The notes: generated from the letters alone by a model not told the origin. A DNA stretch of 30,282 nucleotides from Planctomicrobium piriforme (GCA_945861585.1 CAMAVC010000038.1:1-30282), one strand, 5' to 3'; counted from the stretch's first letter, positions 4,474 to 18,372 are shown. Made by a program: numbers and translations.

Positions 4474-6359
4474 ACGGAGCCTCTACGATGCCCTTGAAGA
4501 ACCCGAAGACTCTGTTGCTGACCATCGTCGTGGCTGCCGCCTGTTCGGTGCCCGCTGGCCTCGCCGTGTGCGCGGCGGAAGCGTTGCCGGCCGAAGCCGA
4601 GCTGATCGCCGTGCTCCGCTCCGACGCAAGCGAGGCCGACAAGGCGCTCGTCTGCAAGAAGCTCGCGATCAAGGGCTCGGCTGCCGCGGTCGGCGACCTC
4701 GCGAAGCTGCTCGCGAACGAGCGGCTCGCATCGTGGGCACGGATTCCACTCGAGGCGATTCCGGGCCCCGAGGCCGACGCCGCGCTGCGCGCGGCCGCCG
4801 GGTCGCTCTCCGGCCGGCTCCTCGTGGGCGTGATCAACTCGATCGGCGTGCGGCGCGATGCTGCGGCCACGAGCCTGCTCGAAGGTCGGCTCGGCGACGC
4901 CGACGCCGAGGTTGCGGCCGCAGCAGCGGCCGCGCTCGGCAAGATCGGCACGCCTGCCGCGGCGGCGATCCTCGCGAAGCAGTTGACTGCCGCAGAGCCA
5001 CGGCTCGACCACATGGCCCAGGCGGCCATCGTCTGTGCCGAGCGGCTGCTTGCCGCCGGCCAGGCCGGCGAGGCTGGGAAAGTCTACGGCGCCATCCGCA
5101 CGGCCAAGGTGTCGGAGCAGCGGCAGGCCGAGGCCACCCGCGGCCTGATTCTGGCTCGTGGCAAGGACGGCATTCCGCTCCTCATCGAGACGCTCCGGTC
5201 GCCCTCGCGGCGGATGGCGAACATCGGCCTGTTCACGGCTCGCGAACTGCTCGATGGGCCCGCGGCCGGCGACGTCGATGTGGCGCTCGTGGACGAGATC
5301 ACGCGCATGGCCGGCGGTGGCAGTGCCGACAAGGCGGCGCTGCTCGTGAAGGTGCTGGCCGACCGCAACGCCGACGGCGGCGTTCCCCCGGGCCTGCAGG
5401 CGACAGTGCTCCGCTGGGCGGCGAGCAGCCCGCAGGCGGTGCGCCTGGCGGCGCTCGAGGCGATCGGCCGGATCGGTGACGCATCGGCCGTCGATCCGCT
5501 CGTGTCGCTCGCGGCTGATCCGGCCGTGGCGGATGCCGCGCGGATGGCGCTGGTGGCGTTGCCTGGCGAGGCCGTGAACCGGGTCGTGATCGGCCGGCTG
5601 TCAGGTGCCGATGCAAAGTTGCAGCCGATTCTTGCCCAGGTGATCGGCGCGCGGCGGATTCCTGCGGTCGCGCAGCTGCAGCCGCTCGTGGCAAGCGCCG
5701 ATCCCGTGGTGCGCGGCGCTGCGTTCGAAGCCCTGGGCAACATCGTCGATCTTGCGAACCTCGGGCTGCTCGTTGATGCCGTCGTCAAGCCGCGCGATGC
5801 GGCCGAAGGCGAGGCGGCGCACAAGTCGCTCCTCACAGCGTGCGTGCGGATGCCCGATCGTGACGCCTGTGCCGAGAAGCTCGCGACGGCGGTGGCCGCG
5901 GCCTCGGGCGAGACCAAGACCAAGATCCTCGACATCGTGGGCGAGGTCGGCGGCACGAAGGCCCTCGCCACTGTGAAGGCCGCGGCGATGTCGGGCGAGG
6001 AATCGCTCGCCGACGCCGCCACGCGACTGCTCGGCAAGTGGATGACGGCCGATGCGGCGCCCGTGCTGCTCGACCTCGCGGCCGCGCCGATCGGCGAGAA
6101 GTATCAAACCCGGGCGATCCGCGGCTACATCCGGATCGCGAGGCAGTTCGCGCTCGCCGATGCGGAGCGGGCGGAGATGTGCACGAAGGCCCTCGCCGCG
6201 GCGAAGGATGCGGCGGATCGCAAGAGCGTGCTCGAGATCCTGCCCCGGTATCCGAGCCCGGCCATGCTCGCGGTCGCCGAGCAGGCGTCGAAGCTGCCCG
6301 GCCTCGAAGCCGAGGCGAAGGCCGCCGCCGATGCGATCCGGGCCAAACTTCCCAAGTAG
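4470..6359 (+). CDS. Secreted HEAT-repeat (PBS-lyase HEAT-like) protein
   Basis: The ATG at 4470 overlaps the upstream TGA stop (ATGA), indicating translational coupling. The N-terminus MNGASTMPLKNPKTLLLTIVVAAACSVPAGLAVCAAEA is a signal peptide. It contains repeated A.R.AA..ALG.IGD..AV.PL...L.D units. The track ORF start at 3972 is a spurious upstream extension into the previous gene. Confidence 0.6.
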   Translation: MNGASTMPLKNPKTLLLTIVVAAACSVPAGLAVCAAEALPAEAELIAVLRSDASEADKALVCKKLAIKGSAAAVGDLAKLLANERLASWARIPLEAIPGPEADAALRAAAGSLSGRLLVGVINSIGVRRDAAATSLLEGRLGDADAEVAAAAAAALGKIGTPAAAAILAKQLTAAEPRLDHMAQAAIVCAERLLAAGQAGEAGKVYGAIRTAKVSEQRQAEATRGLILARGKDGIPLLIETLRSPSRRMANIGLFTARELLDGPAAGDVDVALVDEITRMAGGGSADKAALLVKVLADRNADGGVPPGLQATVLRWAASSPQAVRLAALEAIGRIGDASAVDPLVSLAADPAVADAARMALVALPGEAVNRVVIGRLSGADAKLQPILAQVIGARRIPAVAQLQPLVASADPVVRGAAFEALGNIVDLANLGLLVDAVVKPRDAAEGEAAHKSLLTACVRMPDRDACAEKLATAVAAASGETKTKILDIVGEVGGTKALATVKAAAMSGEESLADAATRLLGKWMTADAAPVLLDLAAAPIGEKYQTRAIRGYIRIARQFALADAERAEMCTKALAAAKDAADRKSVLEILPRYPSPAMLAVAEQASKLPGLEAEAKAAADAIRAKLPK

Positions 6360-6377
6360 GACAGGCTTCAGCCTGTC
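6356..6377 (+). repeat. REP-like palindromic element copy 1 (GTAGGACAGGCTTCAGCCTGTC)
   Basis: Exact 22-mer. Its TAG at 6357-6359 is the stop codon of the HEAT-repeat gene. Confidence 0.9.
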
Positions 6378-6393
6378 GCCCTCGAGGGCCGTC

Positions 6394-7641
6394 ATGAGGA
6401 ACTCGATGTCTCGTCTTGCAGCGGTCTTTTGCATGACACTGCTCGTCGCCGTGCCGGCCCTGGCCGACGTGACGTTTAAGAAGCAGACCCTCAGCGAACG
6501 CTTCGTCGCCGAGGGCTGCGACATGGCCGACTTCGACAAGGACGGCCACGTCGACATCACGGCTGGCAACACGATCTGGCATGGGCCCGATTTTTCGCGG
6601 CAGACCGAGTTCACGCCTCCAGCCGACAATCCGAGCGGCCCGACGAAGACACCCTACGATCCCACGAAGGGGTATTCGGACTACTTTCTGGCGTACGCGC
6701 ACGATTTCACCGGCGACTCGTGGCCCGACATTCTCGTGTATGGTCTGCCGGGCGAAGCGGCCCATGTGTTCGTGAACCCGCAGGGGAAGCCTGGCCACTG
6801 GGAGAGGCACGCGATCTTCGACGTGGCCGACGGCGAGTCGCCCGACCTCGCGGACATGAATGGCGACGGACGGCCCGAGCTCCTCGTGCACTCACGCGGT
6901 CAGCTGGGATTTGCCGAGATCGATTGGAAACAGCCGCTGGCGAAGGCGCGGTTTCGCCCCGTCACGCCGAAGTCGCCCGAGAACGACAAGAAGTATTTTC
7001 GCTATACGCACGGCTACGGCGCGGGTGACGTGAACGGCGACGGCCGCCCAGACCTGCTCACGAAGGACGGCTGGTTCGAGCAGCCGGTCGATATCTCCAA
7101 GGACACGATCTGGCCGTTCCATCCGGGTCCGTTCGGACCGCCCGACGCGCCTCGCGGCGGCGCCCACATGGAAGCGTACGACGTCAATGGTGACGGCCGC
7201 ACCGACGTGGTCACGAGCTACGACGGCCATGGCTACGGGCTCGGCTGGTTCGAGCAGAACGCCGACGGCACGTTTACCGAGCGCCGGATCATGGGCTCAA
7301 AGCCCGAGGACCACCCCCAGGGGGTCGCGTTCAGCCAGCTGCATGCACTGCGGCTCGTGGACATGAATGGCGACGGCCTCCGCGACATCGTCACGGGTAA
7401 ACGCCGCTGGGCGCACGGGATCAATGGCGATGTGGAGCCGAATGCGCCGCCCGTGCTTTATTGGTTCGAACTCGTGCGCGACGGGAAGGGCGGAGCCACC
7501 TTCGTGGCGCATAAGATCGACGACGACAGCGGCGTGGGCACGCAGGTGACCGTGGGACACCTCGACGCGGACGGCAAGCCCGACGTGATCGTGGCCAACA
7601 AACGTGGCGTGTTCGCGTTTTTTCAGCAGGCTGGACGATAG
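6394..7641 (+). CDS. Secreted FG-GAP/VCBS-repeat beta-propeller protein
   Basis: The N-terminus MRNSMSRLAAVFCMTLLVAVPALA is a signal peptide. The body contains repeated FG-GAP-type D.NGDG..D motifs (DFDKDGHVDI, DMNGDGRPELL, DVNGDGRPDLL, DVNGDGRTDVV, DMNGDGLRDIV, DADGKPDVIV). Confidence 0.6.
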   Translation: MRNSMSRLAAVFCMTLLVAVPALADVTFKKQTLSERFVAEGCDMADFDKDGHVDITAGNTIWHGPDFSRQTEFTPPADNPSGPTKTPYDPTKGYSDYFLAYAHDFTGDSWPDILVYGLPGEAAHVFVNPQGKPGHWERHAIFDVADGESPDLADMNGDGRPELLVHSRGQLGFAEIDWKQPLAKARFRPVTPKSPENDKKYFRYTHGYGAGDVNGDGRPDLLTKDGWFEQPVDISKDTIWPFHPGPFGPPDAPRGGAHMEAYDVNGDGRTDVVTSYDGHGYGLGWFEQNADGTFTERRIMGSKPEDHPQGVAFSQLHALRLVDMNGDGLRDIVTGKRRWAHGINGDVEPNAPPVLYWFELVRDGKGGATFVAHKIDDDSGVGTQVTVGHLDADGKPDVIVANKRGVFAFFQQAGR

Positions 7642-7653
7642 AATGCGTCTCGT

Positions 7654-7675
7654 GACAGGCTGAAGCCTGTCCTAC
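7654..7675 (-). repeat. REP-like element copy 2 (reverse orientation GACAGGCTGAAGCCTGTCCTAC)
   Basis: Exact reverse complement of the unit. It lies 13 nt after the FG-GAP gene stop and is followed by TTTTTT. Confidence 0.9.
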
Positions 7676-7681
7676 TTTTTT
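7654..7681 (+). terminator. Intrinsic terminator formed by REP copy 2 hairpin plus T6 tract
   Basis: GACAGGC-TGAA-GCCTGTC is a 7-bp GC-rich stem. CCTAC and TTTTTT (7676-7681) follow, just downstream of the FG-GAP gene. Confidence 0.5.
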
Positions 7682-7692
7682 GGAGGTCATGC

Positions 7693-8700
7693 ATGCGGTT
7701 CATTGCTCTGATCGTGGCGTTCGTTTCGTCCGCTGCCGTGGCCGCCGACCCCTGGCTCGTGATCGAAGGGGGCGAGGGGCCCGGAAAGGGCAAGCATGTC
7801 GTGCTCGTGAGCGGTGATGAGGAATACCGCAGCGAGGAGGGGCTCACGCAGCTGGCGAAGATCCTCGCCAAGCATCATGGGTTCACCTGCACCGTGCTCT
7901 ATGCGATCGATCCCGAAACGGGCGAGATCAACCCCATGAACCAGAAAAACGTCCCGGGGCTCGAGGCCCTGCGGAAGGCGGACCTGATGGTGATCGCCAC
8001 GCGGTTTCGCAACCTGCCCGACGAGCAGATGCAGGAGATCGATGCGTATCTGAAAGCCGGCAAGCCGGTGATCGGGCTGCGAACCGCGACGCATGCGTTC
8101 GCGCTGCCGAAGGAGTCGCGATTCGCCCGCTACAGTTGGAACAACAAGACCGACATGTTCACCGAGGGCTTCGGCCGCCAGGTGCTGGGCGAGACGTGGA
8201 TCAGCCACCACGGCCATCACGGCCACGAGAGCACGCGCGGCCTCCTCGTGCCCGAGGCGAAGGAAAATCCGATCGTCCGGGGCATCAAGGACGGCGACAT
8301 CTGGGGCCCCACCGACGTGTACGGCGTGCGGCTGCCCTTGCCCGGCGACTCCAAGCCGCTCGTGCTCGGGCAGGTGCTCGAGGGGATGACGCCCGATGCA
8401 CCCGTCGTCACAGGCGCCGACGCCAAGAAGAACGAGCCGATGATGCCAATCGCATGGACCAAGACGTATGCCGTGGAAGGCGGGCCGACCGGCCGCGTGT
8501 TCACGACCACGATGGGCTCGTCGACCGACCTGGCATCGGCCGGCCTGCGGCGGCTGCTCGTGAACGCGGCCTACTGGGCGGTGGGGCTCGAGGACAAGAT
8601 TCCCACGGCCGCGGACGTGGAAGTCGTGGGCACGTATGAGCCGACGCCGTTCAAGGCCGGTGGCCACAAGAAGGGCGTGAAGCCACTCGATCTGCGGTAA
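7693..8700 (+). CDS. Secreted hypothetical protein, tentatively ThuA/class-I glutamine-amidotransferase-like
   Basis: GGAGG sits 6 nt upstream of the ATG. The N-terminus MRFIALIVAFVSSAAVAA is a signal peptide. The body, starting KHVVLVSGDEEYRSEEGL, resembles ThuA-domain proteins. The family assignment is from memory only. Confidence 0.4.
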   Translation: MRFIALIVAFVSSAAVAADPWLVIEGGEGPGKGKHVVLVSGDEEYRSEEGLTQLAKILAKHHGFTCTVLYAIDPETGEINPMNQKNVPGLEALRKADLMVIATRFRNLPDEQMQEIDAYLKAGKPVIGLRTATHAFALPKESRFARYSWNNKTDMFTEGFGRQVLGETWISHHGHHGHESTRGLLVPEAKENPIVRGIKDGDIWGPTDVYGVRLPLPGDSKPLVLGQVLEGMTPDAPVVTGADAKKNEPMMPIAWTKTYAVEGGPTGRVFTTTMGSSTDLASAGLRRLLVNAAYWAVGLEDKIPTAADVEVVGTYEPTPFKAGGHKKGVKPLDLR

Positions 8701-8722
8701 GTAGGACAGGCTTCAGCCTGTC
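8701..8722 (+). repeat. REP-like element copy 3
   Basis: Exact 22-mer. It starts immediately after the TAA stop of the ThuA-like gene at 8698-8700. Confidence 0.9.
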
Positions 8723-8731
8723 AGGAATACC

Positions 8732-8753
8732 GACAGGCTAAAGCCTGTCCTAC
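8732..8753 (-). repeat. REP-like element copy 4 (loop variant TAAA)
   Basis: GACAGGCTAAAGCCTGTCCTAC: reverse orientation with one loop substitution. It lies 9 nt from copy 3. Confidence 0.9.
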
Positions 8754-8761
8754 GACGTCAC

Positions 8762-8783
8762 GACAGGCTAAAGCCTGTCCTAC
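8762..8783 (-). repeat. REP-like element copy 5 (loop variant TAAA)
   Basis: Identical to copy 4, 8 nt away from it. Its CTA at 8780-8782 is the TAG stop of the minus-strand binding-protein gene. Confidence 0.9.
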
Positions 8784-9778
8784 ATCTGCCGGGCAAACCG
8801 CTTCGTTGCCGGGAATGAAAAGATCCCCGGATGCAGGAGGTCCGCGAGCACCTCGAGCGAGTCGACGAGCCGCGGGCCGGGGCGGTTGAAGAGATGGTGG
8901 CCGTCCACCGCGTAGATGCGTCTGGTGCGAAAGGCCCGGAGCATCTTGAGCCGATTGCGAATCGCAGGCGACTCGGCTTCGGCGACGACGCGGTTGAGCG
9001 TGAACCCACACGGCACGAGGATCACGATGTCGGGGTCGGCGGCGATCACGTCGTCCCAGGTGATCCAGTGGGAGTGACTGCCCGACTTGCCGAGCACGTC
9101 GCGACCGCCGGCGAGCGATACGAGTTCCGGCACCCAGTTGCCCGCCGCCATCGGCGGGGCGAGCCATTCGATGATGCTCACCGTAGGACAGGCTTCAGCC
9201 TGTCGTGCGTCGGCCCGCACCCGGCACGCCACGCTGGCAACGCGTGCCCGCAACCGGGCCACGACCTCACGCGCCTTTGCAAGCGTCCTCGTGGCTGCCC
9301 CCACGGCGAGGATGTCGGCATAGACGTCGGCGAGCATTGCCGGGGAGAGCTCGAGCACGCGGGCGGGAAAGCTCATGCGGCACACCGCCGCCCGTACGTC
9401 GGCCGTCGCGACCGCGCACACATCGCAGGCCGCCTGCGTGAGGATGAGGTCGGGCTCGAGGGCGGCGAGGCGTGCCGTGTCGAGCGTGTAGAGGGCATTC
9501 GTCGTCGCTGGCCCGTCGGCCGCATCGGCGAGCGCCCTGCCGACGGCGTCGTGGATCTGCCGGCTCGTGCCGGCCGGATCGATCCGCGGGGCGGTGAGTG
9601 CGGGCAGTGTCGCCACGCTCGCCGGCTCGTCGCACTCGTGCGACCGGCCCACGAGCCGGTCGGCGAGCCCGAGGGCGGCCACGATTTCGGTCGCGGCCGG
9701 AAGGAGCGAGACGATTCTGAGCGCGGGCCTGGCTTCTGGAGCGGCGGGTTCCATCATGATTCCGGTAGGATTGAGCAT
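8780..9778 (-). CDS. BtuF/FecB-like (class III, helical-backbone) ABC-transporter substrate-binding protein homolog without signal peptide; carries an in-frame REP insertion
   Basis: RIVSLLPAATEIVAALGLADRLVGRSHECD and ..WVPELVSLAGGRDVLG are colinear with BtuF-like periplasmic binding proteins. There is no N-terminal signal peptide. AAGGA lies upstream of the ATG at 9778. The stop TAG at 8780-8782 lies inside REP copy 5. The residues RQAEACPT are encoded by REP copy 6 at 9183-9204. Confidence 0.6.
   Translation of the reverse strand: MLNPTGIMMEPAAPEARPALRIVSLLPAATEIVAALGLADRLVGRSHECDEPASVATLPALTAPRIDPAGTSRQIHDAVGRALADAADGPATTNALYTLDTARLAALEPDLILTQAACDVCAVATADVRAAVCRMSFPARVLELSPAMLADVYADILAVGAATRTLAKAREVVARLRARVASVACRVRADARQAEACPTVSIIEWLAPPMAAGNWVPELVSLAGGRDVLGKSGSHSHWITWDDVIAADPDIVILVPCGFTLNRVVAEAESPAIRNRLKMLRAFRTRRIYAVDGHHLFNRPGPRLVDSLEVLADLLHPGIFSFPATKRFARQM
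9183..9204 (+). repeat. REP-like element copy 6, located inside a CDS in-frame
   Basis: Exact 22-mer inside the 8780..9778 minus-strand CDS. On that strand it is read cga cag gct gaa gcc tgt cct acg, giving RQAEACPT. Confidence 0.9.
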
Positions 9779-9792
9779 CTGGAGGTCCTTCC

Positions 9793-10788
9793 ATGTTACA
9801 GCCGGCCCACGATCACACGCCCGCCGAGCGGCTCACCGAGGCCGCCCGGCTGCACGACTACCGCTACGCCTCGAACCCGCTCGCCGACGGCACGCTCGGG
9901 GCGATCCCGGGGGCGCGGTTTCCGGCGGAACTCCACGAGCGCGGGATCACCCGCACCGTACCGCTCGACACGAGCATGGCCCTCGGCTGCCCGGGCCCGG
10001 CCACGACGCCGGGATTGTGTGCCAACTTCGTGCACCTGCGGCCTGGCGACGCCCACGTGACCGACGCCAACGCCACGAGCCAACTGTTCTTCGTGATGCG
10101 GGGGAGCGGCTGCTCACATGTCGGCGAAGGCGGTCCCGGCGACCACGAGATTCCGTGGCGGGCGGGTGATCTCTTCACGCTGCCAGCCAAGAGCCGCGCC
10201 GAGCACATCGCGGCCGACGACGCGGCGCTCTACTGGGTGCACGACGAGCCGCTGTTGCGCTATCTCGGCGTCGAGGCCACGCGGCGGCACTTTGCTCCCA
10301 CGCTCTACACCCACGCGGCGATCATGGAAGCGCTTCAGGCCGTGATGCGCGATCCGGCGAGCGCGAAGGCGAGCCGGGTGAGCGTGCTCCTCGGGCACCG
10401 TTCGTTTCCGCAGACGATGACGATCACGCACGTGCTGTGGGCGATGTTCGGCGTCCTCCCGGTGAACGCGGTGCAGGCGCCGCACCGGCATCAGTCGGTG
10501 GCGGTGGATCTCGTTGTCGATGCCAAGCCGGGCTGCTACACGATGGTCGGCCGCACGCTCGACAAGGACGGCATGATCCAGGACGGCGAGCGGTTCGACT
10601 GGAAGCCACATTCGGTGTTCGTGACCCCGCCGGGCCTCTGGCACTCGCACCACAACGAGTCGGGCCATCCCGCCCACATCCTCCCGATCCAGGACGCGGG
10701 GTTGCACACCCACCTCCGCACGCTCGATATCCGCTTCACCCGGCAACTCACGGGCGGCGGGTGCGAGGTGGTGGAGAATGCCGGCTAG
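9793..10788 (+). CDS. Bicupin protein (gentisate 1,2-dioxygenase-like cupin)
   Basis: GGAGG sits 7 nt upstream of the ATG. The sequence has cupin motifs APHRHQSVAVDLVVDAKPG and VTPPGLWHSHHNESG (P.G..H...N). The two-domain length of 331 aa fits a bicupin. Confidence 0.5.
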   Translation: MLQPAHDHTPAERLTEAARLHDYRYASNPLADGTLGAIPGARFPAELHERGITRTVPLDTSMALGCPGPATTPGLCANFVHLRPGDAHVTDANATSQLFFVMRGSGCSHVGEGGPGDHEIPWRAGDLFTLPAKSRAEHIAADDAALYWVHDEPLLRYLGVEATRRHFAPTLYTHAAIMEALQAVMRDPASAKASRVSVLLGHRSFPQTMTITHVLWAMFGVLPVNAVQAPHRHQSVAVDLVVDAKPGCYTMVGRTLDKDGMIQDGERFDWKPHSVFVTPPGLWHSHHNESGHPAHILPIQDAGLHTHLRTLDIRFTRQLTGGGCEVVENAG

Positions 10789-10944
10789 GGCGGTGTTGAG
10801 GGCTGGTTTCGTCCGTACAGGGCTCGCGAACCACCCATTTTCTCCAGGATTCCTGACCGGAATTCGTGGTACGTCGATCACGATCCGCACGACCGGACGA
10901 CGAAAGCATGGGAGAAGTTTTTTCCCTGGGAGGGTATTGAGACC

Positions 10945-12219
10945 ATGAACACGTGGCGCGGTTTTTCCGGATGTGCCGGTGTAGCGTTGTTTGCTTTCGT
11001 GCCGACTGTCGTACTGGCCTCGAGCTTCGAGGACGGTTTGCAGGTCAGTGATCGGTCCGAACTGTTCTCGCCCGTGGCCGAATCCGTCCTCGTGGACATG
11101 GGAAACGATTCGGTGTCGCTCGATGGCACGGTCGGACTGCCGCACCAGCGTGAGTATGTCGCAGCGGACGAACAGTCGGTTCCGTGTGCCTCATGCCCAG
11201 TGTACGAGAGCGACGATTGCCCGCAGTGCATCGGCTGCATCGACGACGGCAGTCTGTCGGTCGCATCGTGCACCGATGCAGACTCGGCGCCGCGCCGTTC
11301 GCGAGCAGGGTGGATCAATCGCATCCTCGGGCCGGCCGATCCACGCTGGGTGGTTCAGGTCGACGCGCTCATGCTCTGGCAGGGCAACATCGCGAGTCGG
11401 CCCATTCTGCTCAACGCGGCAGGTCTCACGGCACTCGACGTGAACCAGGCACAGACGCCCGTCTCCGTGGGCACCCGATACGGAGTGTTGTTCAACCTCG
11501 ACGAGTGTTTCGCCATCGAAGGCAACTATTTTCAAGCAGGGCTCTTCGACGGTCGGGCCACGCCCGTGGGTGCGGGCCCGTTTACCCCGGCGAATGTCTA
11601 CGGAGTGGGTCCGCTCCTGGGGCAGGTCGATACAGCGCAGCTGACCAGCAGCGGCTTCATCAAGAGTGCCGAGCTGAATTGGCGCCGCCGGAATCCCGGA
11701 CCGTTGACTTGGCTGGCAGGCTTCCGGTGGGTCGAGTGGAATCAGGGCCTGGGTATGAATGGCACCTATTCGACCGGTCAACTTGGGAACGGCAATCTGG
11801 CCTCCAGCACGATCACGGGCAACGATCTCTACGGTGGGCAGGTGGGCGCGGATCTCAGTCTGTGGAACAACAAGACAGGCCCGATTACCGTCAATGGAAT
11901 CGGCAAAGCCGGCATCTTCTACAACAACGCGTTCCAACACTCAGCCGTCACGACGACGGCGAGTGGCACGAACGAAGTCGGGTCGGTCGCGGATCAGACG
12001 GCCTTCTTCGGCGAGGTGGGCGCGAACGCGAATGTCCGGCTCACGAACTGGCTGTCCTGGCGGGCCGGCTACTCGGTGTTCTGGCTGAGTGGTGTCGCGA
12101 TCCCCGCCGATCAACTATCGCAGGCGAACCTGGCCGTCTCACCTCCAACGGCGCTCATCAACACCAATGGCAGCGTGCTCCTGCACGGGGTGACGACGGG
12201 TCTCGAGGCGCGGTGGTAG
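10945..12219 (+). CDS. Outer-membrane beta-barrel protein, BBP7-like (planctomycete family), with Cys-rich N-terminal module
   Basis: The N-terminus MNTWRGFSGCAGVALFAFVPTVVLASS is a signal peptide. A 7-Cys segment (CASCPVYESDDCPQCIGCID..SC) follows. The rest is rich in Gly/Asn/Ser/Thr with an alternating beta-strand pattern. The C-terminus ..GLEARW has the terminal aromatic residue typical of the OMP beta-signal. Confidence 0.5.
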   Translation: MNTWRGFSGCAGVALFAFVPTVVLASSFEDGLQVSDRSELFSPVAESVLVDMGNDSVSLDGTVGLPHQREYVAADEQSVPCASCPVYESDDCPQCIGCIDDGSLSVASCTDADSAPRRSRAGWINRILGPADPRWVVQVDALMLWQGNIASRPILLNAAGLTALDVNQAQTPVSVGTRYGVLFNLDECFAIEGNYFQAGLFDGRATPVGAGPFTPANVYGVGPLLGQVDTAQLTSSGFIKSAELNWRRRNPGPLTWLAGFRWVEWNQGLGMNGTYSTGQLGNGNLASSTITGNDLYGGQVGADLSLWNNKTGPITVNGIGKAGIFYNNAFQHSAVTTTASGTNEVGSVADQTAFFGEVGANANVRLTNWLSWRAGYSVFWLSGVAIPADQLSQANLAVSPPTALINTNGSVLLHGVTTGLEARW

Positions 12220-12244
12220 GGGTGCTGAGGCGGATCGAAGCCGT

Positions 12245-12266
12245 GACAGGCTGAAGCCTGTCCTAC
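12245..12266 (-). repeat. REP-like element copy 7
   Basis: Exact reverse-orientation 22-mer between the convergent BBP7-like gene (ends 12219) and uvrA. Its CTA at 12263-12265 is the uvrA TAG stop. Confidence 0.9.
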
Positions 12267-15200
12267 ACGAGGGCGGTGAGGGCTTCGCCGGTGTGGCTGC
12301 GGAGCGGATCGCCAGCGGTCGGGACGATCTTCGTAGACACGGATGCACGTTCCCGCTGGGCATGGATCATGATGTCTTCCGGCGGGCCCTCGGCCACGAT
12401 CCTGCCGCCGCCGTCGCCTGCCTCGGGGCCCATGTCGATCACCCAGTCGGCCGCCTCGATGACCTCGAGGTTGTGCTCCACCACGAGCACCGTGTTGCCC
12501 GTCTCCACCAGCCGCTCGAGCACGTGGAGCAGTTTCTCGATGTCGGTGAAATGCAGCCCCGTCGTCGGCTCGTCGAGAATGTAGAGCGTGTTGCCCGTGC
12601 CCGGCTTCGCCAGCTCGCGGGAGAGCTTCACCCGCTGGGCCTCGCCGCCTGAAAGCTGCGGCGCCGGCTGGCCGAGCGTGATGTAGCCGAGCCCCACGTC
12701 GACGAGCGTGCCGAGGATCCGCGCGATCTGCGGCGCGGTCTCGAAGAATTGGTGCGCGTCGGCCACGCTCATCTCGAGCACGTCGGCAATGCTCTTGCCG
12801 TGCCACTTGGCGTGGAGCGTTTCAGACGAATAGCGGCGGCCCTTGCAGGCCTCGCACTGCACCCACACGTCGGGCAGGAAGTGCATCTCCACGCGGCGTT
12901 GGCCGAGGCCCTCGCAGGCCTCGCAGCGGCCGCCATCGACGTTGAAACTGAAGGTGCGCGGCGTGAACCCACGGGTGCGCGACTCCGGCACCTTCGCGTA
13001 GAGCTGCCGGATGTGGTCGAACACGCCCGTGTAGGTGGCCGGCGTCGAGCCGGGCGTCGAGCCGATCGACTCCTGGTCGACGAGGATCACCTTGTCGATC
13101 TGGTCGAGCCCCTTCACGGCATCGTGCTGCCCGGGCTGCTCGCGGGCTGCGTGGAGCCGGCGGGCAAGCGCCCGCCAGAGCACTTCGAGCACGAGCGACG
13201 TCTTCCCGGAGCCGCTCGGGCCCGTCACGGCCGTGAGCACGCCCAGCGGAAACCGGGCGTCGAGTCCTTTCAGCGTGCGATGGCGGATGCCCTTGATCTC
13301 GAGCCACTGCCCGGGCACCCGGCGGCCTGTCTGCCGCTTCTTCTCGAGCACCGCGTCGCAGGCCCGGCGCTTCTTGAGATAGGGCCCCGTCACGCTGGCC
13401 TTCATCGTCGCGAGCTTCGTGGGCGCGGCGTGGGCCACGATCATGCCTCCCTCGCGGCCGCTGCCGGGGCCGAAGTCGAGGGCGTGGTCGGCCGCGTTCA
13501 CCACGTCGCGGTCGTGCTCCACGACGACGAGCGTGTTGCCGAGGTCGCGGAGCTTACCGAGGGCGCGGATCAGGCGATGCGTGTCGCGTGGATGGAGGCC
13601 GATCGTCGGCTCGTCGAGCACGTAGAGCACGCCCGTGAGGCCGCTGCCCACCTGGGCCGCCAGGCGAATCCGCTGGAGCTCGCCCCCCGACAGGCTCCCG
13701 GCGGGCCGGGCCATGTCGAGATACTCGAGCCCCACGTCCACGAGGAAGTTCACCCGCGAGACGAGCTCGCGGAGCAGATCGCCCGCGATCTTCTTGTCGG
13801 CGTCCGAGATCTCGATGGCCGCGAGTTCCTGCTGCAGCCGGCCGAGCGGCATCCGGCACCAGACGTCGAGCGAGCGGCCCCAGAGGGTGACGGCGCTTGC
13901 CTCCTCGGCGAGTCGGCTGCCACCGCAGTCGCTGCACGGTACCTCGCCCATCACCGCGTCGACTTTCGAGCGCAGGCCGACCACGAGCCGGGCCGCCTCC
14001 TCGCAGGCGTTTTCGAGGCCTTTGAATTGGAACGCGAACCACGGGGGGGCATCCTCTCGGCTCACGCCTCGGGCTTTCTCGGAGGAGGGCCGCGGCACCT
14101 CGATCCAGCGGTCGCCCGTGCCCTCGAACAGCACGCGCTGCTGGAGGCCCGAGAGATCGGCGAGCGGCACGTCGGCCGGGAGGCCGGTGGCCGCACACAG
14201 GGCCTCGAGCATCGCCCGGCTGGTAGCGCCGCAGTCCTTGCGGTCGAGGCTCGGCCACAGATCGAGCGCGCCCTCGGCCAGCGACTTCGTCGCGTCGCGC
14301 ACAAGCGACGCATGATCCACGCCGGTGCGCGTGCCGAGCCCATCGCACGCGGGGCACCAGCCGAGAGGGCTGTTGAATGAAAACTGCCGCGGCTCCAGCG
14401 GCTTGAACCCCCGGCCGCACGAGCGGCAGGCGAGCCGGCGGCTCATCACCTCGACCGGCCAGTCGGGCTCCGGCAGCGGCTTGCCGTCGGGCCCGTCGGC
14501 AACGCGGGCCACGAGCATCGTGCCCGCGCCGGCGTCGAAGGCCGCCTCCACGCTCTGGGCAAGCCGGCTGCGCTCGGCGGGGCTTGCCGTGACGCGGTCG
14601 ATCACGATCTCGATCCTATTTTTCCGCTTCCGGTCGAGCGACGGCTTCTCGTCCAGGTGCACCGTCTGCCCGTCGATCCGCACCCGCACGTAGCCCGCCG
14701 CCCGCAGGCTCGCGAACAAGCTCTCCGGTGTCTGCCCGACCCGGAGTTCGACTGGCGCGAGCAGGAGCATCCGCGTGCCCGACGGACATTCGAGCAGCCG
14801 CCCGACGGTTTCATCGACGCTCTGGGCTCCGACCTCGAGGCCGCAGTCAGGGCAGTGCATGGCGCCGAGCCGTGCGGCGAGCACGCGAAAATAGTCGTAC
14901 ATCTCCGTGAGCGTGCCGACCGTCGAGCGGGGCGTGCTGCCGCTCGACCGCTGCTCGATCGCCACGGCCGGCGACAGCCCCTCGATCCGCTCGAACACCG
15001 GCTTCGGCACCTGCCCCACGAACTGCCGGGCGTAGGGGGAGAGGCTCTCGACATACCGCCGCTGCCCCTCAGCGTAGAGCGTGTCGAACGCGAGCGACGT
15101 CTTCCCGCTACCACTCGGCCCGCAGCAGACCGTCATCGCGCCGCGCGGGATGTCGGCATCCACCTGTTTCAGATTGTGCTGGGCTGCGCTGCGGACCATG

Positions 15201-18200
15201 ATCGCCGGCGGGCCCGGATCGCGCGACGCTTTTTCAACCTGCGCCATGAGCGCGGCGGCATCGACGGGCTTCTTGCGGCGCACGGCGGTCTTCGCCGCCG
15301 GCTTCTTGGCTGCGGCCAGAATCGGTACGAGTGCCTTGCCGGTGCACGAGGCCTTCACCTTCGCCACCTGCTCCGGTGTGCCCTCGGCCACGATCCGTCC
15401 GCCGCCAGCGCCTCCTTCCGGCCCGAGGTCGATCACCCAGTCGGCCCGCTTCACGACGTCGAGGTTGTGCTCCACCACGAGCACCGTGTTGCCCGCCTCC
15501 ACGAGCCGTTCGAGCACCGCGAGCAGTTGCCGCACGTCGGCCATGTGCAGCCCCGTCGTCGGCTCGTCGAGAATGTAGAGCGTCTTGCCGGTCGAGCGCT
15601 TAGCCAGTTCGCGCGAGAGCTTCACCCGCTGGGCCTCGCCGCCCGAGAGCGTCGGGGACGGCTGGCCGAGATGCAGGTAGTCGAGGCCCACGTCGTGCAG
15701 CGTTTGGAGCTTGCGCGCGATGTCAGGGGCATCGGCGAACAGTTCGAGGGCGTCGCCGATCTCCATGTTCAACAGTTCGGCGACGTTCTTCCCCTTCCAG
15801 CGGACCTCGAGGGTGTCCTTCGCGAACCGGGCCCCGTCGCACACGTCGCAGGTCACCCACACGTCGGCGAGAAAATCCATGTCGAGCCGCGTTGAGCCGT
15901 TGCCTTCGCAGGCCTCGCAGCGGCCGCCCGACACGTTGAAGCTGAACCGCCCGGCCTTCCAGCCGCGCTTCTTCGCCTCGGGCAGCATCGTGAACAGCGC
16001 ACGGATGTCGTCCCAGACCTTCACGTAGGTCGCCGGATTCGACCGCGGCGTGCGGCCGATCGGCGACTGGTCGATCACGATCACCTTGTCGAGCTGGTCG
16101 GCGCCGGTGATCGCGTCGAACTCGCCCGGCACTGCGGCCTCGCTTCCGAGCAGCCGCCGCAGCTCGGGCTCGAGCACGTCGCCCACGAGCGAACTCTTGC
16201 CGCTGCCCGACACGCCGGTCACGCACACGAGAAGCCCGAGCGGGATCTCGACATCGATCCCCTTCAAGTTGTTGTGACGCACGCCGGAGAGTTTCAGCGT
16301 CTGGCCCGTGGGCTTGCGGCGTTTTTCCGGCACCTCGATCGCTTCGCGTCCGGCGAGAAACGCGCCCGTCAAGCTGCGGTCACTCGCCGCCACGTCGGCT
16401 GGCGTGCCCGCCGCCACGACTTCGCCGCCCCGCTTGCCCGGGCCTGGCCCGAAGTCCACCACCCAGTCGGCCGCGCGGATCGTGTCTTCATCGTGCTCCA
16501 CGACGACCACCGTGTTGCCCTTGTCGCGGAGCGCCTCGAGGGCGCCCAAGAGCTTGACGTTGTCTCTGGGATGCAGCCCGATCGAGGGCTCGTCGAGGAC
16601 GTAGAGCACGCCCGAGAGCCCCGAGCCGATCTGCGCGGCCAGGCGAATCCGCTGGCTCTCGCCGCCGGAAAGCGTGGGGGCTTTGCGGTCGAGCGCGAGA
16701 TAGCCGAGGCCCACCTGATCGAGAAACTCGAGCCGCGAGCGGATCTCCTTGAGGAGTTCCGTGGCGATCAAGGTCTGCGTGCCGTCGAGAACGAGGTCGG
16801 AGAGAAATTCCCGCGCGTCCGCGATCGGCAGGGCACACAGTGCGTCGAGCGAGAGCGAAGGCGGTCCCGCGCGTCGGGCCTGGCTCGTGATCCGCACGGC
16901 CCGGGCCTGCGGTGAGAGCCGTGCGCCCTGGCAGGCATGGCAGGGGGTCACCCGCATCAGCTTTTCGAGCATCCGCCGGATGATGCCGCTCTTGGCGTTC
17001 CGCCACTTGGCGGCCAGGAGTGCGAGGATGCCTTCAAACTTTGTCTTCGCGCCGCGCTCGGCCCGGCCGCGCTTCCACGCGAGCTTGATCTCCTCGACGC
17101 CCGTGCCCGAGAGCCAGATCTTCTTCTGGGCAGGGGTGAGCTTTTCCCAGGGGGTTTCGAGGAGCGTGCCGGGGGCGAGCTTCTTCTTCGCTTCGGCGTG
17201 CGCGGCCACGCCCGTGAACAGCCGCCGCATCCAGCGCGGCATGTCGCGGAACGTGCCGAGCACGCCCATGCAGCCCTTCTTGAGCGACTTCGTCGGGTCG
17301 GTGACGAGCTTCTCGGGATCGATGCCGTAGATGTCGCCAAGGCCGTCGCACACAGGGCAGGCACCGATGGGGCTATTGAAACTGAAGAGCTGCGGCTCGG
17401 GCGTCGAGTAGCTCACGCCACAGGCCACGCACGCATAGCGGCTCGAAAGCACGAGGTCGCCTCCACGATCGCTGGCACCGTCGGCACCGGGATCGATGGC
17501 CACGATCACTTGGCCACCGCCGGTGCGCAGTGCGAGGTCCACCGCCTCGGCCAGCCGGCTGCGGCCGGCGGCGTTGGCCACGATCCGGTCGATCACGACG
17601 TCGATCGAATGCTTGAACTGCTTTTCGAGTGGCGGCGGATCCTCCACCCGCACGATCCGGCCGTCGACCCGGGCCCGCGTGAAGCCCTGTCGCACGAGGT
17701 CGGTGAACAGATCGCGGTGCTCCCCCTTTTGGTCGCGCACCAGCGGCGCGAGCACGAGCACCTGCTCGTCGGCCCGCTGGGCGAGAATTCGCTCCACGAT
17801 CTGGTCGCGCGGCTGCGCCTCGAGCACGGCATCGCACTCGGGGCAGTGGGCCGTGCCGACCCGTGCGTAGAGCACGCGCAGGAAATCGTGGATCTCCGTC
17901 ATCGTGGCCACGGTCGACCGCGGGTTCGTGCCAGCCGACTTCTGGGCGATCGAGATCGAGGGCGAGAGGCCTGTGACGCTGTCGACGTCGGGCCGGGGCA
18001 ACTGCCCGAGGAACTGTCGGGCGAACGTGGAGAGGCTCTCGACGTAGCGCCTTTGCCCCTCGGCATAGAGCGTGTCGAAGGCGAGGCTCGACTTGCCCGA
18101 GCCGCTCACGCCCGACAGGCACACGAGCCGACCCCGTGGCAGGGCCACCGTGACGTCGCGCAGGTTGTGCTCGCGGGCACCTCGAACGACGATCGGCGGA

Positions 18201-18208
18201 ACGTGCAT
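12263..18208 (-). CDS. uvrA: Tandem-fused double UvrA (two complete excinuclease ABC subunit A units, four ABC ATPase modules) in one 1981-aa ORF
   Basis: Each half contains a Walker A ([28 protein letters not shown] in the first, [28 protein letters not shown] in the second), Zn-finger CxxC pairs and a UvrB-binding-like segment ([20 protein letters not shown].., [19 protein letters not shown]..). Each half also has signatures [12 protein letters not shown] / [12 protein letters not shown] and [17 protein letters not shown] (twice), plus Walker B YVLDEP / [11 protein letters not shown]. The halves are joined by a Lys/Ala-rich linker ([18 protein letters not shown]). They are clearly diverged paralogs, not identical copies. 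The stop TAG at 12263-12265 lies inside REP copy 7. Confidence 0.9.
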   Translation of the reverse strand: [1981 protein letters not shown]

Positions 18209-18299: not shown

Positions 18300-18372
18300 G
18301 GGGCGGTAGCTCAACTGGGAGAGCGCGGCGTTCGCAATGCCGAGGTTGGGAGTTCGATCCTCCTCCGCTCCA
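18300..18372 (+). tRNA. tRNA-Ala (anticodon CGC)
   Basis: GGGGCGGTAGCTCAACTGGGAGAGCGCGGCGTTCGCAATGCCGAGGTTGGGAGTTCGATCCTCCTCCGCTCCA folds as a cloverleaf. The 7-bp acceptor stem has a G3:U70 pair, the Ala identity element. The anticodon loop is TTCGCAA with anticodon CGC. A T-loop TTCGATC and discriminator A are present. CCA is not encoded. Confidence 0.9.

What the first reader, a model, noticed from the sequence alone, without database searches (positions are those of the whole stretch)
6356..12266. A compact family of 22-nt palindromic REP/MITE-like elements, seven copies in 6 kb
The unit GTAG+GACAGGC-TT(C/T)A-GCCTGTC is a 7-bp GC-rich hairpin with a 4-nt loop and a GTAG tail. It occurs seven times between 6356 and 12266 and nowhere else in the 30 kb. 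Three copies are in one orientation and four in the other. Two adjacent copies share a loop variant (TAAA), which suggests local duplication. Every copy sits at a gene boundary or inside a gene. Four copies abut or contain a stop codon, using the GTAG/CTAC tail as TAG. This resembles REP/BIME, Correia or Rickettsia palindromic elements. I did not recognise this specific 22-mer as a named family. The element also leaves a clear footprint in the six-frame track: RTGFSLS, VGQASAC and QAEACPT recur in unrelated ORFs.
Basis: seen in the sequence. Interest (0 to 1): 0.7.

Follow-up and report, generated by a model that had tools for sequence, protein, structure and literature searches.

The report
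GTAG-tagged REP hairpin repeat family
The seven 22-base hairpins are real copies of a known kind of bacterial repeat (a GTAG-tagged REP that elsewhere flanks its own RAYT transposase gene), so the finding is correct but largely ordinary.

Summary
Seven exact copies of GTAG+GACAGGC-TTYA-GCCTGTC lie at the stated coordinates, against about zero expected by chance. Three supply the TAG stop of a gene, one abuts a TAA, and one sits in frame inside a gene.

The element is a GTAG-tagged repetitive extragenic palindrome (REP). The TTTA variant, identical to copies 4 and 5, is already listed in Quentin et al. 2018 (Table S1) as a REP flanking a TnpA_REP gene of Ignavibacterium album.

The exact 22-mer is dispersed in many Pirellulales and Acidobacteriota MAGs. 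In soil metagenome contigs it flanks RAYT (Y1/HUH, REP-associated tyrosine transposase) genes as inverted doublets, which is the REPtron layout. RAYT clades and REP subtypes co-vary.

Close relatives of the window show filled and empty sites. The in-frame site in a periplasmic-binding-protein loop holds 0, 1, 2 or 3 copies.

No RAYT was found in the window or in any Pirellulales contig, so mobilisation in this lineage is inferred, not shown.

Verdict: a new member of a known kind, of modest interest. The cross-phylum identity of the REP is the most interesting residue.

The parts
6356..6377 (+). REP copy 1 (GTAG tag, 7-bp stem GACAGGC, TTCA loop). Its TAG (6357-6359) is the stop codon of the upstream HEAT-repeat gene. 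It lies between two co-directional genes.
   Evidence: Orthologous site: present in L204 and L207 with 1 mismatch each; only the 5' half remains in L205; empty in L206, where the gene ends in TGA.
7654..7675 (-). REP copy 2, between the FG-GAP gene (stop at 7639-7641) and the ThuA gene (start at 7693). On the + strand the hairpin is followed by CTAC and TTTTTT, so it looks like a terminator.
   Evidence: The orthologous intergenic region in L205 and L207 has unrelated sequence. In L204 the two genes are fused. This copy is therefore specific to the window.
8701..8722 (+). REP copy 3, starting directly after the TAA of the ThuA gene. With copy 4 it forms an inverted doublet with the GTAG tags on the outside (8701-8753, 9-nt spacer), like an HH dimer or a REPIN.
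   Evidence: The doublet folds at about -32 kcal/mol, z about -10. The same triple is present in L204, L206 and L207 and is replaced by other GTAG hairpins in L205.
8732..8753 (-). REP copy 4 (TTTA loop), the inverted partner of copy 3.
   Evidence: Identical to variant 7 listed for Ignavibacterium album AFH48914.1 in Quentin 2018 Table S1.
8762..8783 (-). REP copy 5 (TTTA loop), a head-to-tail duplicate of copy 4 at 30-nt spacing. Its TAG (8782-8780, minus strand) is the stop codon of the periplasmic-binding-protein gene.
   Evidence: About 30-nt head-to-tail arrays recur in Pirellulales-like loci.
9183..9204 (+). REP copy 6, inside the periplasmic-binding-protein gene 8780-9778(-). It is translated in frame as RQAEACPT, in the stretch between the conserved LRARV...CRV segment and the conserved IEWLDPP motif.
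   Evidence: More distant homologues lack the insert. Closer ones carry 1, 2 or 3 REP-derived units at the same point. At the DNA level, L208 is an empty site and L209 has three degenerate tandem copies.
12245..12266 (-). REP copy 7, between the convergent BBP7-like gene and the UvrA-like gene. Its TAG (12265-12263, minus strand) is the stop codon of the 1981-aa UvrA-like gene.
   Evidence: Filled in the window and L204. Empty in L205 and L207, where the gene call runs on and overlaps the convergent gene.
8780..9778 (-). Host gene of copy 6: a Peripla_BP_2 protein, named 'cobalamin-binding protein' by a source.
   Evidence: PF01497, E 1.4e-12. (closest named relative at 92% identity: 'MAG: cobalamin-binding protein [Pirellulales bacterium]').

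Best explanation
The seven units are copies of a GTAG-tagged repetitive extragenic palindrome (REP). This is the class of short hairpin repeats thought to be recognised, cut and spread as single-stranded DNA by a REP-associated tyrosine transposase (RAYT, also called TnpA_REP, a Y1/HUH enzyme).

Anatomy. Each unit has an unpaired 5' GTAG 'foot', a 7-bp G+C-rich stem and a TTYA loop. Units occur singly, as inverted doublets with the GTAG tags outside (like REPINs or BIMEs), and as head-to-tail arrays of about 30 nt.

Shown here:
- The same 22-mer is dispersed in many Pirellulales and Acidobacteriota genomes.
- In soil metagenome contigs the same 22-mer flanks RAYT genes on both sides, the REPtron layout.
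- RAYT clades co-vary with REP subtype.
- The stem is kept by compensatory changes between subtypes.
- Orthologous sites in close relatives of the window are filled or empty.

Inferred, not shown:
- A RAYT of this family is or was active in the window's own lineage.
- Copies insert as single-stranded hairpins at the replication fork.
- Copies persist mainly where they are tolerated: just after genes, between convergent or co-directional genes, or in frame in a variable stretch of a protein.
- Once inserted, the GTAG tag is co-opted as a TAG stop codon.
- The hairpin may also serve as a 3'-end RNA stabiliser or terminator.
For: Anatomy and non-randomness.

Dispersal. They come from several independent Pirellulales/Planctomycetia MAGs and from Acidobacteriota MAGs, including megabase contigs.

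Literature.
- Defining features of GTAG REPs, their TAG stop donation, intragenic in-frame copies and HH dimers: PMC3733652.
- The identical TTTA variant flanking TnpA_REP AFH48914.1: PMC6006769 Table S1.

REPtron evidence.
- 82 of 84 RAYT matches of this family (80 metagenome loci plus L113, L120 and L121) have GT[AG]G-tagged 7-bp hairpins within 300 bp.
- The exact window 22-mer flanks the RAYT in L147, L156, L171, L178, L182, L183, L189 and L194. In L171, L183 and L189 the REP's TAG is the RAYT's own stop codon.

RAYT identity.
- NCBIfam NF047646 REP_Tyr_transpos scores 73-86 bits against a cut-off of 80.
- Pfam Y1_Tnp scores above its cut-off.
- The best solved structure is 4ER8, TnpArep.
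- The HUH motif (NHxH), FWQDESFDHW and YIExNP are conserved.

Co-variation. The nearest RAYT neighbour has the same REP type in 60 of 73 cases. No label permutation out of 2000 reached the observed contrast.

Hairpin constraint. Stem position 1 switches between G-C and C-G, and position 6 between G-C and A-T, among abundant subtypes. L210 carries a GACAAGC/GCTTGTC version.

Site polymorphism.

Conservation. Orthologous REP copies differ at 6 of 352 compared bases. Flanking 180-nt anchors are 86-98% identical.

Stop-codon use. The TAG frame is open for at least 100 codons upstream in 31% of copies, against 8-11% for control frames, in the lower-GC loci.
Against: - No RAYT or other Y1 transposase gene was found in the 30-kb window, in the 112 REP-bearing genome loci, or in the four orthologous Pirellulales contigs.
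- Every RAYT locus recovered is 53-70% G+C and looks acidobacterial or is of unknown origin. None is demonstrably from Pirellulales.
- Head-to-tail 30-nt arrays are common in the Pirellulales-like loci and absent from the Acidobacteria-like loci. Slippage or recombination could produce them without a transposase.
- The filled/empty comparisons did not resolve exact insertion boundaries.
- Nothing here shows cleavage, binding or transcription.
- Some of the apparent phylum breadth is probably mis-binning. 'Kuenenia' contigs are 68% G+C and 'Saccharimonadales' contigs are 55% G+C.
Confidence: 0.78

Rival explanations
1. Orphan REPs. The Pirellulales lineage has no cognate RAYT, because it was lost or only the repeats were acquired. 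The copies persist and multiply by recombination, slippage and tandem duplication, and by selection for the uses the host has made of them.
For: - No RAYT was found in any Pirellulales-like sequence examined.
- Head-to-tail arrays at about 30 nt and many singletons are specific to the high-GC loci.
- Di Nocera et al. note that REPtrons can be missing from REP-bearing species, having been eliminated by deletion as in many E. coli strains.
Against: - Only about 0.5 Mb of Pirellulales-like DNA could be examined, and a genome usually has a single RAYT copy. Absence from this sample therefore says little.
- Site S7 is filled in two relatives and empty in two, and site S2 is filled only in the window. 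This implies insertions at new, unlinked sites within a group whose PBP proteins are 86-95% identical, which tandem duplication cannot produce.
Confidence: 0.15
2. The hairpins are primarily host regulatory elements, kept by selection and not mobile. Possible roles are transcription terminators, 3'-end mRNA stabilisers or protein-binding sites.
For: - Six of seven copies sit just after the stop codon of a gene, overlapping it in three cases.
- Copy 2 scores as terminator-like, a hairpin followed by a T run.
- Orthologous copies are about four to five times better conserved than the flanking coding DNA.
- Such roles are documented for E. coli REPs, as summarised in PMC3733652.
Against: - Only one of the seven copies has a T tract.
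- Both orientations occur behind genes.
- One copy is translated in frame.
- The identical sequence flanks RAYT genes and shows filled and empty sites.
- A regulatory role is compatible with the REP/RAYT explanation as a secondary, co-opted function. It does not replace that explanation.
Confidence: 0.05
3. A local duplication, a chance palindrome, or a classical MITE left by a DDE-transposase insertion sequence.
For: All seven copies lie within 6 kb of a 30-kb window.
Against: - Zero copies are expected by chance.
- The 22-mer occurs in at least 112 stretches of other genomes.
- The flanks of the copies share no similarity beyond 1-3 bases.
- At 22 nt there is no room for terminal inverted repeats around a body, and no target duplication is evident.
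Confidence: 0.02

Closest known systems
REPs flanking TnpA_REP subclass 2.7 (Quentin et al. 2018, PMC6006769, Table S1), in particular Ignavibacterium album AFH48914.1 and the genome coded EmolA01 (AFK02952.1)
   Same: - Same layout: GTAG foot, 7-bp stem beginning GACAG, TTYA loop.
- I. album variant 7, GTAGGACAGGCTTTAGCCTGTC, is identical to window copies 4 and 5.
- The RAYTs found here next to the window's 22-mer carry NH[VI]H, WQ, D-H and YIE[NR]NP. These are close to the motifs the paper gives for subclass 2.7: [ND]HVH, WQ, D in place of E100, and YI[LR][NQ]NP.
   Different: - The host is a roughly 69% G+C Pirellulales-like organism, not an Ignavibacterium.
- The dominant variant here has GGC/GCC in the stem, while I. 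album mostly has GAC, GAA or GGA.
- No RAYT is seen next to these copies.
- Assignment of the RAYTs found here to subclass 2.7 rests on motif resemblance only. I could not place them in that paper's tree.
GTAG-tagged REP superfamily (Di Nocera, De Gregorio and Rocco 2013, PMC3733652), including SMAG elements of Stenotrophomonas and the REPs of Opitutus terrae and Rhodopirellula baltica
   Same: - Short stem-loop with a terminal GTAG.
- Singletons, HH dimers and groups.
- Location after genes and between convergent or co-directional ORFs.
- GTAG supplying TAG stops.
- In-frame intragenic copies, with uvrA noted there as a frequent target.
- REPtrons.

   Different: - The stem and loop sequence match none of the REP-encoded peptides listed in that paper's table of intragenic REPs. 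Its Figure 1 consensus list could not be read.
- That paper reports HT dimers as rare. They are frequent in the Pirellulales-like loci here.
REPIN-RAYT systems (Bertels and Rainey 2011, PMC3116915)
   Same: - Inverted REP doublets that fold into one long hairpin.
- A RAYT flanked by them.
- In the Acidobacteria-like loci, 47 of 47 adjacent pairs are inverted doublets, nearly all 44-64 nt apart.
   Different: - The doublet is much shorter in the Pirellulales-like loci (28-31 nt start to start).
- Singletons and tandem arrays are common there.
- The same REP sequence occurs in different phyla, whereas REPIN-RAYT systems are described as mostly vertically inherited (abstract listed).
Rickettsia palindromic elements (RPE)
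   Same: A palindromic repeat is inserted in frame in a protein-coding gene and translated (copy 6).
   Different: From my own knowledge, RPEs are about 100-150 bp and belong to other sequence families. Di Nocera et al. place RPE-4 and RPE-6 among CGTC repeats. Here the unit is 22 nt and most copies are extragenic.

Membership tests
GTAG-tagged REP (RAYT-type REP) | Short (20-40 bp) palindrome able to form a stem-loop | tested here: met
   22 nt with a 7-bp perfect stem and a 4-nt loop. DNA fold -7 kcal/mol, z -2.7 to -4.
GTAG-tagged REP (RAYT-type REP) | Unpaired GT[AG]G tetranucleotide at the 5' foot of the hairpin | tested here: met
   GTAG is present in all seven copies. GT[AG]G is present in all related subtypes.
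GTAG-tagged REP (RAYT-type REP) | Many dispersed copies per genome | tested here: inconclusive
   Several copies on several contigs in each of a number of Pirellulales and Acidobacteriota MAGs.
GTAG-tagged REP (RAYT-type REP) | Mostly extragenic, after genes, between convergent or co-directional ORFs | tested here: met
   Six of seven copies are extragenic. No copy lies between divergent genes. The TAG frame is enriched for long upstream ORFs.
GTAG-tagged REP (RAYT-type REP) | Organised in dimers or clusters (BIME, REPIN, HH dimers) | tested here: met
   Copies 3 and 4 form an HH doublet and copy 5 is a tandem partner. There are 67 HH dimers in related loci and no TT dimers.
GTAG-tagged REP (RAYT-type REP) | A RAYT/TnpA_REP gene flanked by the same REP (REPtron) | tested here: met
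   Met for the identical 22-mer in metagenome contigs L147, L156, L171, L178, L182, L183, L189 and L194, with the RAYT identified. Not met, and not testable, for the window's own genome. No RAYT was found in any Pirellulales-like sequence held.
GTAG-tagged REP (RAYT-type REP) | Binding and cleavage of the single-stranded REP by its RAYT | not testable with these tools
   Needs biochemistry. Shown only for E. coli TnpA_REP in the literature (PMC3333891 and PMC3479197, listed).
TnpA_REP subclass 2.7 REPtron (Quentin 2018) | RAYT with [ND]HVH, WQ and YI[LR][NQ]NP motifs, no conserved C-terminal extension, flanked by long canonical GT[AG]G REPs | tested here: inconclusive
   The RAYTs next to the 22-mer have NH[VI]H, FWQDESFDHW and YIE[NR]NP and are about 181 aa. 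This is similar but not identical to the published motif line. No tree placement was possible.
MITE / Correia-type element | A body of about 100-400 bp bounded by terminal inverted repeats, with a target-site duplication | tested here: not met
   The unit is 22 nt. Flanks share nothing beyond 1-3 bases. No duplication is seen at filled versus empty sites.
Intrinsic terminator | G+C-rich hairpin immediately followed by a T/U run | tested here: not met
   Only copy 2 has a T run, and it lies after a CTAC spacer. The other six do not.
CRISPR array | Direct repeats in one orientation, separated by unique spacers of about repeat length | tested here: not met
   The triple at 8701-8783 has mixed orientation and 8-9 nt spacers.

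The most novel reading that the evidence does not exclude
One REP-RAYT system has crossed phylum boundaries. The identical 22-nt REP is amplified in Acidobacteriota, in Pirellulales (Planctomycetota) and, as a catalogued variant, in Ignavibacterium. Each lineage has its own dimer geometry: doublets of about 53-57 nt in one, doublets of about 30 nt plus head-to-tail arrays in the other. That would mean horizontal transfer of a RAYT together with seed REPs, followed by independent amplification. It runs against the picture of REPIN-RAYT systems as almost strictly vertically inherited. A variant of this reading is that the Pirellulales copies now spread or persist without any cognate RAYT.
Probability: 0.35. 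Interest if true: 0.55.

Novelty: new member of a known kind. Interest (0 to 1): 0.3.

Why it matters
For annotating this genome:
- The repeats explain three stop codons.
- They explain an eight-residue insert (RQAEACPT) in a binding protein.
- They mark points where gene ends and intergenic regions change between strains.
- Gene callers will misplace ORF ends and invent small ORFs around them.

For the REP field:
- The soil metagenome loci give a compact natural data set. It holds dozens of RAYT clades, each with its own compensated REP stem variant, which could be used to read out the RAYT-DNA recognition code.
- The same 22-mer in three phyla offers a direct test of vertical against horizontal inheritance of REP-RAYT systems.

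None of this changes what is known about the kind of element.

Tried and rejected
- Rfam at gathering thresholds found only tRNA-Ala at 18300-18372 and no RNA family at the repeats.
- A full-text search for the 18-mer and for 11-mer halves gave only unrelated primer hits.
- None of the REP-encoded peptides (GQASA, QAEAC, TGFSL, DRLKP, DRLQP) appears in the supplements of Di Nocera 2013.
- RAYT searches in the window and in the 112 genome loci found nothing real. I used a HUH...Y motif regex, tblastn with E. coli TnpA_REP, whose sequence I checked as identical to 4ER8, and a panel of 11 RAYT/TIRYT sequences from Di Nocera's Additional file 5. A weak hit in L097 was part of an unrelated 497-aa ORF.
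- P0240 was picked because its contig length equalled that of a Pirellulales contig. That was a coincidence, but the locus turned out to be a REPtron.
- A viral-contig scan for the RAYT family gave only 2 loci, so the family is not generally phage-borne.
- To find a Pirellulales RAYT I ranked family members by amino-acid composition as a G+C proxy, looked up cluster names and fetched three contigs. These were a Terriglobales MAG, a 61% G+C contig with a GACAAGC variant, a 70% G+C contig with GTGGCGCCGGCTTCAGCCGGCG REPs, and a 64% G+C contig. None carried the window's REP and none was shown to be planctomycete.
- I considered a REP-mediated clean deletion of the FG-GAP and ThuA genes in L206. 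I rejected it because short remnants of both genes remain.
- I considered that REPs insert next to a pre-existing GTAG. The evidence is mixed. The binding-protein gene ends in G-TAG in every relative, with three different hairpin bodies behind it. The empty site S1 ends in TGA.


Full report
**1. Observation**

A pattern search finds exactly seven matches to GTAGGACAGGCTTYAGCCTGTC in the window. They lie at 6356(+), 7654(-), 8701(+), 8732(-), 8762(-), 9183(+) and 12245(-). All are exact. Allowing up to three mismatches adds none elsewhere, and shuffled sequence gives none. The window is about 69% G+C.

Each unit folds as a 7-bp stem with a 4-nt loop. The inverted pair at 8701-8753 folds as one long hairpin of about -32 kcal/mol, z about -10. 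Beyond the 22 bases the copies share at most one to three flanking bases.

**2. Gene context**

- Copy 1 overlaps the stop of a HEAT-repeat gene. The TAG at 6357-6359 is the TAG of the GTAG tag.
- Copy 2 lies in the 51-nt gap between an FG-GAP gene and a ThuA gene.
- Copies 3-5 fill the 79-nt gap between the convergent ThuA and periplasmic-binding-protein (PBP, PF01497) genes. Copy 3 starts right after the ThuA TAA. The tag of copy 5 is the PBP stop codon.
- Copy 6 is inside the PBP gene, in frame, and encodes RQAEACPT.
- Copy 7 supplies the stop of a 1981-aa double UvrA-like gene, convergent with a BBP7-like gene.

The closest named relative of the PBP is annotated '[Pirellulales bacterium]' at 92% identity.

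**3. Not a local oddity**

The carriers are several independent Pirellulales/Planctomycetia MAGs and many Acidobacteriota MAGs, including megabase long-read contigs. There are single hits labelled Kapaibacterium, Anaerolineales, Heliomicrobium, Acidimicrobiales and Verrucomicrobiia.

Contigs labelled Kuenenia (68% G+C) and Saccharimonadales (55% G+C) are probably mis-binned.

Dimer geometry differs by lineage:

- In the lower-GC, Acidobacteria-like loci, 47 of 47 adjacent pairs are inverted doublets with the GTAG tags outside. Nearly all are 44-64 nt apart.
- In the high-GC, Pirellulales-like loci there are 20 such doublets, the commonest spacing being 28-31 nt. There are also 20 head-to-tail pairs at about 30 nt and 50 singletons.
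- No tail-to-tail dimers occur in either group.

**4. What is already known**

Di Nocera et al. 2013 (PMC3733652) describe the superfamily of GTAG-tagged REPs. They report it in the Planctomycetes-Verrucomicrobia-Chlamydiales (PVC) superphylum among other groups. They describe HH, TT and HT dimers and a preference for the 3' side of genes. [quoted passage not shown] They also describe in-frame intragenic copies, often in uvrA and other repair genes, and REPtrons.

Quentin et al. 2018 (PMC6006769) list in Table S1 the REPs found within 1 kb of each TnpA_REP gene. For Ignavibacterium album AFH48914.1 (subclass 2.7), the variants are GTAGGACAG-NN-TTYA-NN-CTGTC. Number 7 is GTAGGACAGGCTTTAGCCTGTC, identical to window copies 4 and 5. 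The genome coded EmolA01 (AFK02952.1) has GTAGGACAGGTT-TTC-AACCTGTC.

That paper describes subclass 2.7 as taxonomically patchy, consistent with horizontal transfer. The exact sequence does not occur in the main text of any held paper.

**5. Link to a transposase**

No Y1 transposase is encoded in the window or in the 112 genome loci.

A scan of viral contigs for the repeat brought in L113. It encodes a 181-aa Y1_Tnp protein flanked by GTGGCGCAGGCTTCCAGCCTGCG doublets. Used as a query, this protein retrieved a large family that sources annotate as 'REP-associated tyrosine transposase' or 'RayT'.

One member, P0240 on L120, is flanked on both sides by inverted doublets of GTAGGACAGGC-TTNTA-GCCTGTC. 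These have the window's tag and stem with a 5-nt loop.

A metagenome scan with an alignment of the family (A1) returned 80 RAYT loci:

- Together with L113, L120 and L121, 82 of 84 RAYT matches have GT[AG]G-tagged 7-bp hairpins within 300 bp, usually as doublets on both sides.
- The exact window 22-mer flanks the RAYT in L147, L156, L171, L178, L182, L183, L189 and L194.
- In L171, L183 and L189 the RAYT's own stop codon is the TAG of the downstream REP.

Other RAYT clades carry GTAGCACAGRC, GTGGCGCAGGC, GTGGAACAGGC, GTGGCACAGRC and further stems. REP type follows RAYT relatedness. The nearest neighbour has the same type in 60 of 73 cases, and none of 2000 label permutations reached the observed contrast.

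Among 43 sequence variants, the free stem positions are Watson-Crick paired in 140 of 172 cases. Abundant subtypes differ by two-sided changes: G-C to C-G at position 1 and G-C to A-T at position 6. L210 adds a GACAAGC/GCTTGTC version.

The proteins match as follows:

- NCBIfam REP_Tyr_transpos at 73-86 bits, against a cut-off of 80.
- Pfam Y1_Tnp above its cut-off.
- Best among solved structures: E. coli TnpArep, 4ER8.

The family has 579 half-identity cluster representatives at E <= 1e-30.

**6. Evidence of gain and loss next to the window's own genes**

Four contigs carry orthologues of the PBP at 86-93% identity, with conserved gene order (L204-L207). Site by site:

- Copy 1 is present in L204 and L207 with one substitution each. 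Only its 5' half remains in L205. It is absent in L206, where the gene ends in TGA.
- Copy 2 is present only in the window.
- The triple (copies 3-5) is present in L204, L206 and L207. In L205 it is replaced by other GTAG-tagged hairpins.
- Copy 7 is present in the window and L204. It is absent in L205 and L207, where the UvrA-like gene call runs on and overlaps the convergent gene.

Orthologous copies differ at only 6 of 352 compared bases, three of them in the loop. The flanking 180-nt anchors are 86-98% identical.

**7. The in-frame copy**

An alignment of 120 homologues shows that more distant relatives read ...RV.TF.D-RPRVAVIEWLDPP with no insert. Closer relatives have one RQAEA[CY]PT or RLEACPT unit. 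Some have two or three in tandem. Others have peptides derived from other repeats at the same point.

At the DNA level, L208 is an empty site and L209 has three decayed tandem copies. The window and L204-L207 share one intact copy, in frame.

This point in the protein is therefore a recurrent landing or expansion site where the insert is tolerated.

**8. Mechanism**

The best-supported reading is that these are REPs of a RAYT-associated family. By analogy with E. coli TnpA_REP and the IS200/IS605 family (established knowledge; PMC3333891, PMC3479197), the enzyme recognises the hairpin and the GTAG foot on single-stranded DNA and cuts and rejoins it.

What is shown here is the association, the co-variation, the structural constraint and the site polymorphism. 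What is inferred is the activity itself and its presence in the window's lineage. I could not find a RAYT in any Pirellulales sequence available to me.

Host co-option is plausible. Three genes use the tag as their stop. In a wider sample of the lower-GC loci, the TAG frame is open for at least 100 codons upstream in 31% of copies, against 8-11% for control frames. Copy 2 resembles a terminator.

**9. Verdict**

The finding is real and correctly described, and the interpretation as a REP is right. It is a further member of a described kind, and one of its two sequence variants is already catalogued. Interest is modest.

The least ordinary aspect is that the same 22-mer is amplified in different phyla with lineage-specific dimer geometry.

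Noticed in passing
window 12263-18208 (-): A 1981-aa protein made of two UvrA-like units. UvrA_inter and UvrA_DNA-bind each match twice. Internal direct repeats 12378-12677 and 15372-15671 are 83% identical. Orthologues of 1988 and 2002 aa exist in L204 and L207. Its stop codon comes from REP copy 7. Di Nocera et al. single out uvrA genes as frequent REP hosts.
   Followed up: partly
L113 64-1817; L120 9450-11573; L121 10001-12132: In three contigs the RAYT gene sits directly next to a gene resembling a terminase large subunit (PF03237/PF04466). A hairpin, GCGGCTGCGCGCGGA(A/G)AATCGCGCGC, recurs about 250 bp upstream of the RAYT in more than ten metagenome loci. This suggests a conserved neighbourhood, possibly a prophage remnant. 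The family is nevertheless rare in viral contigs (2 loci).
   Followed up: partly
L205, L208 and L209, 3' end of the PBP gene (orthologue of window 8780-8782): The PBP gene ends in G-TAG in every relative examined, but three different hairpin bodies follow the tag: GACAGGC..., GTGCAGATTG... and CGCAAGC.... In L209 a REP is translated at the C-terminus (KVGQASACLE*). This could mean that REPs insert or recombine at an existing GTAG. Evidence from other sites is mixed.
   Followed up: partly
L204 10885-13098 (orthologue of window 6394-8700): The FG-GAP and ThuA genes are called as one 737-aa fused ORF. The join is exactly where the window has its intergenic REP copy 2.
   Followed up: no
L206 reverse complement 8290-8530 (between the HEAT gene and the REP triple): The FG-GAP and ThuA genes are reduced to short recognisable remnants, about 250 bp in place of 2.3 kb. 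This is gene decay between two REP sites.
   Followed up: partly
PBP homologues P0007, P0016, P0017, P0022-P0024, P0026, P0037-P0041, P0050 and others, at the position of window 9183-9204: Other repeated peptides occupy the same stretch of the protein: GRPSRSP[MT]R, QGWKPGSAPADGGRPSDG and VGQPSRLP, the last in three tandem copies. These are probably footprints of other repeat families inserted at the same hot spot.
   Followed up: no
High-GC loci among L001-L112 and L204-L209: Further GT[AG]G-tagged hairpin families occur in Pirellulales-like contigs. Examples are GTAGACCGCTTGCTCCGCAAGCGG, GTAGCGACAGGCCTCCAGGCCTGTCG and GTGGGGCAGGCTTCCAGCCTGCC. The lineage apparently hosts several REP families.
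   Followed up: no
Proteins P0307, P0272, P0280, P0283, P0226, P0266: Called RAYT proteins carry REP-encoded peptides at their ends (RQAEACPT, SRTGFSLS). In P0307 they also lie inside the N-terminal region (GTGFSLCTRRLQPAG). So gene calls run into the flanking REPs, and at least one RAYT may have a REP doublet inserted in its own coding sequence.
   Followed up: no
L013, L025, L079, L083; L006, L011, L085: Contigs of MAGs labelled Candidatus Kuenenia are 67-69% G+C and contigs labelled Saccharimonadales are 54-55% G+C. Both seem too high for those groups (my recollection: Kuenenia is about 41% G+C), which points to mis-binned Pirellulales-like and Acidobacteria-like contigs.
   Followed up: no
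L211 (70% G+C contig, JGI 3300037420): A RAYT of the same family is flanked by GTGGCGCCGGCTTCAGCCGGCG. The 4+7+4+7 layout and the TTCA loop are the same, with an all-G+C stem. The family therefore extends into very high-GC genomes.
   Followed up: partly
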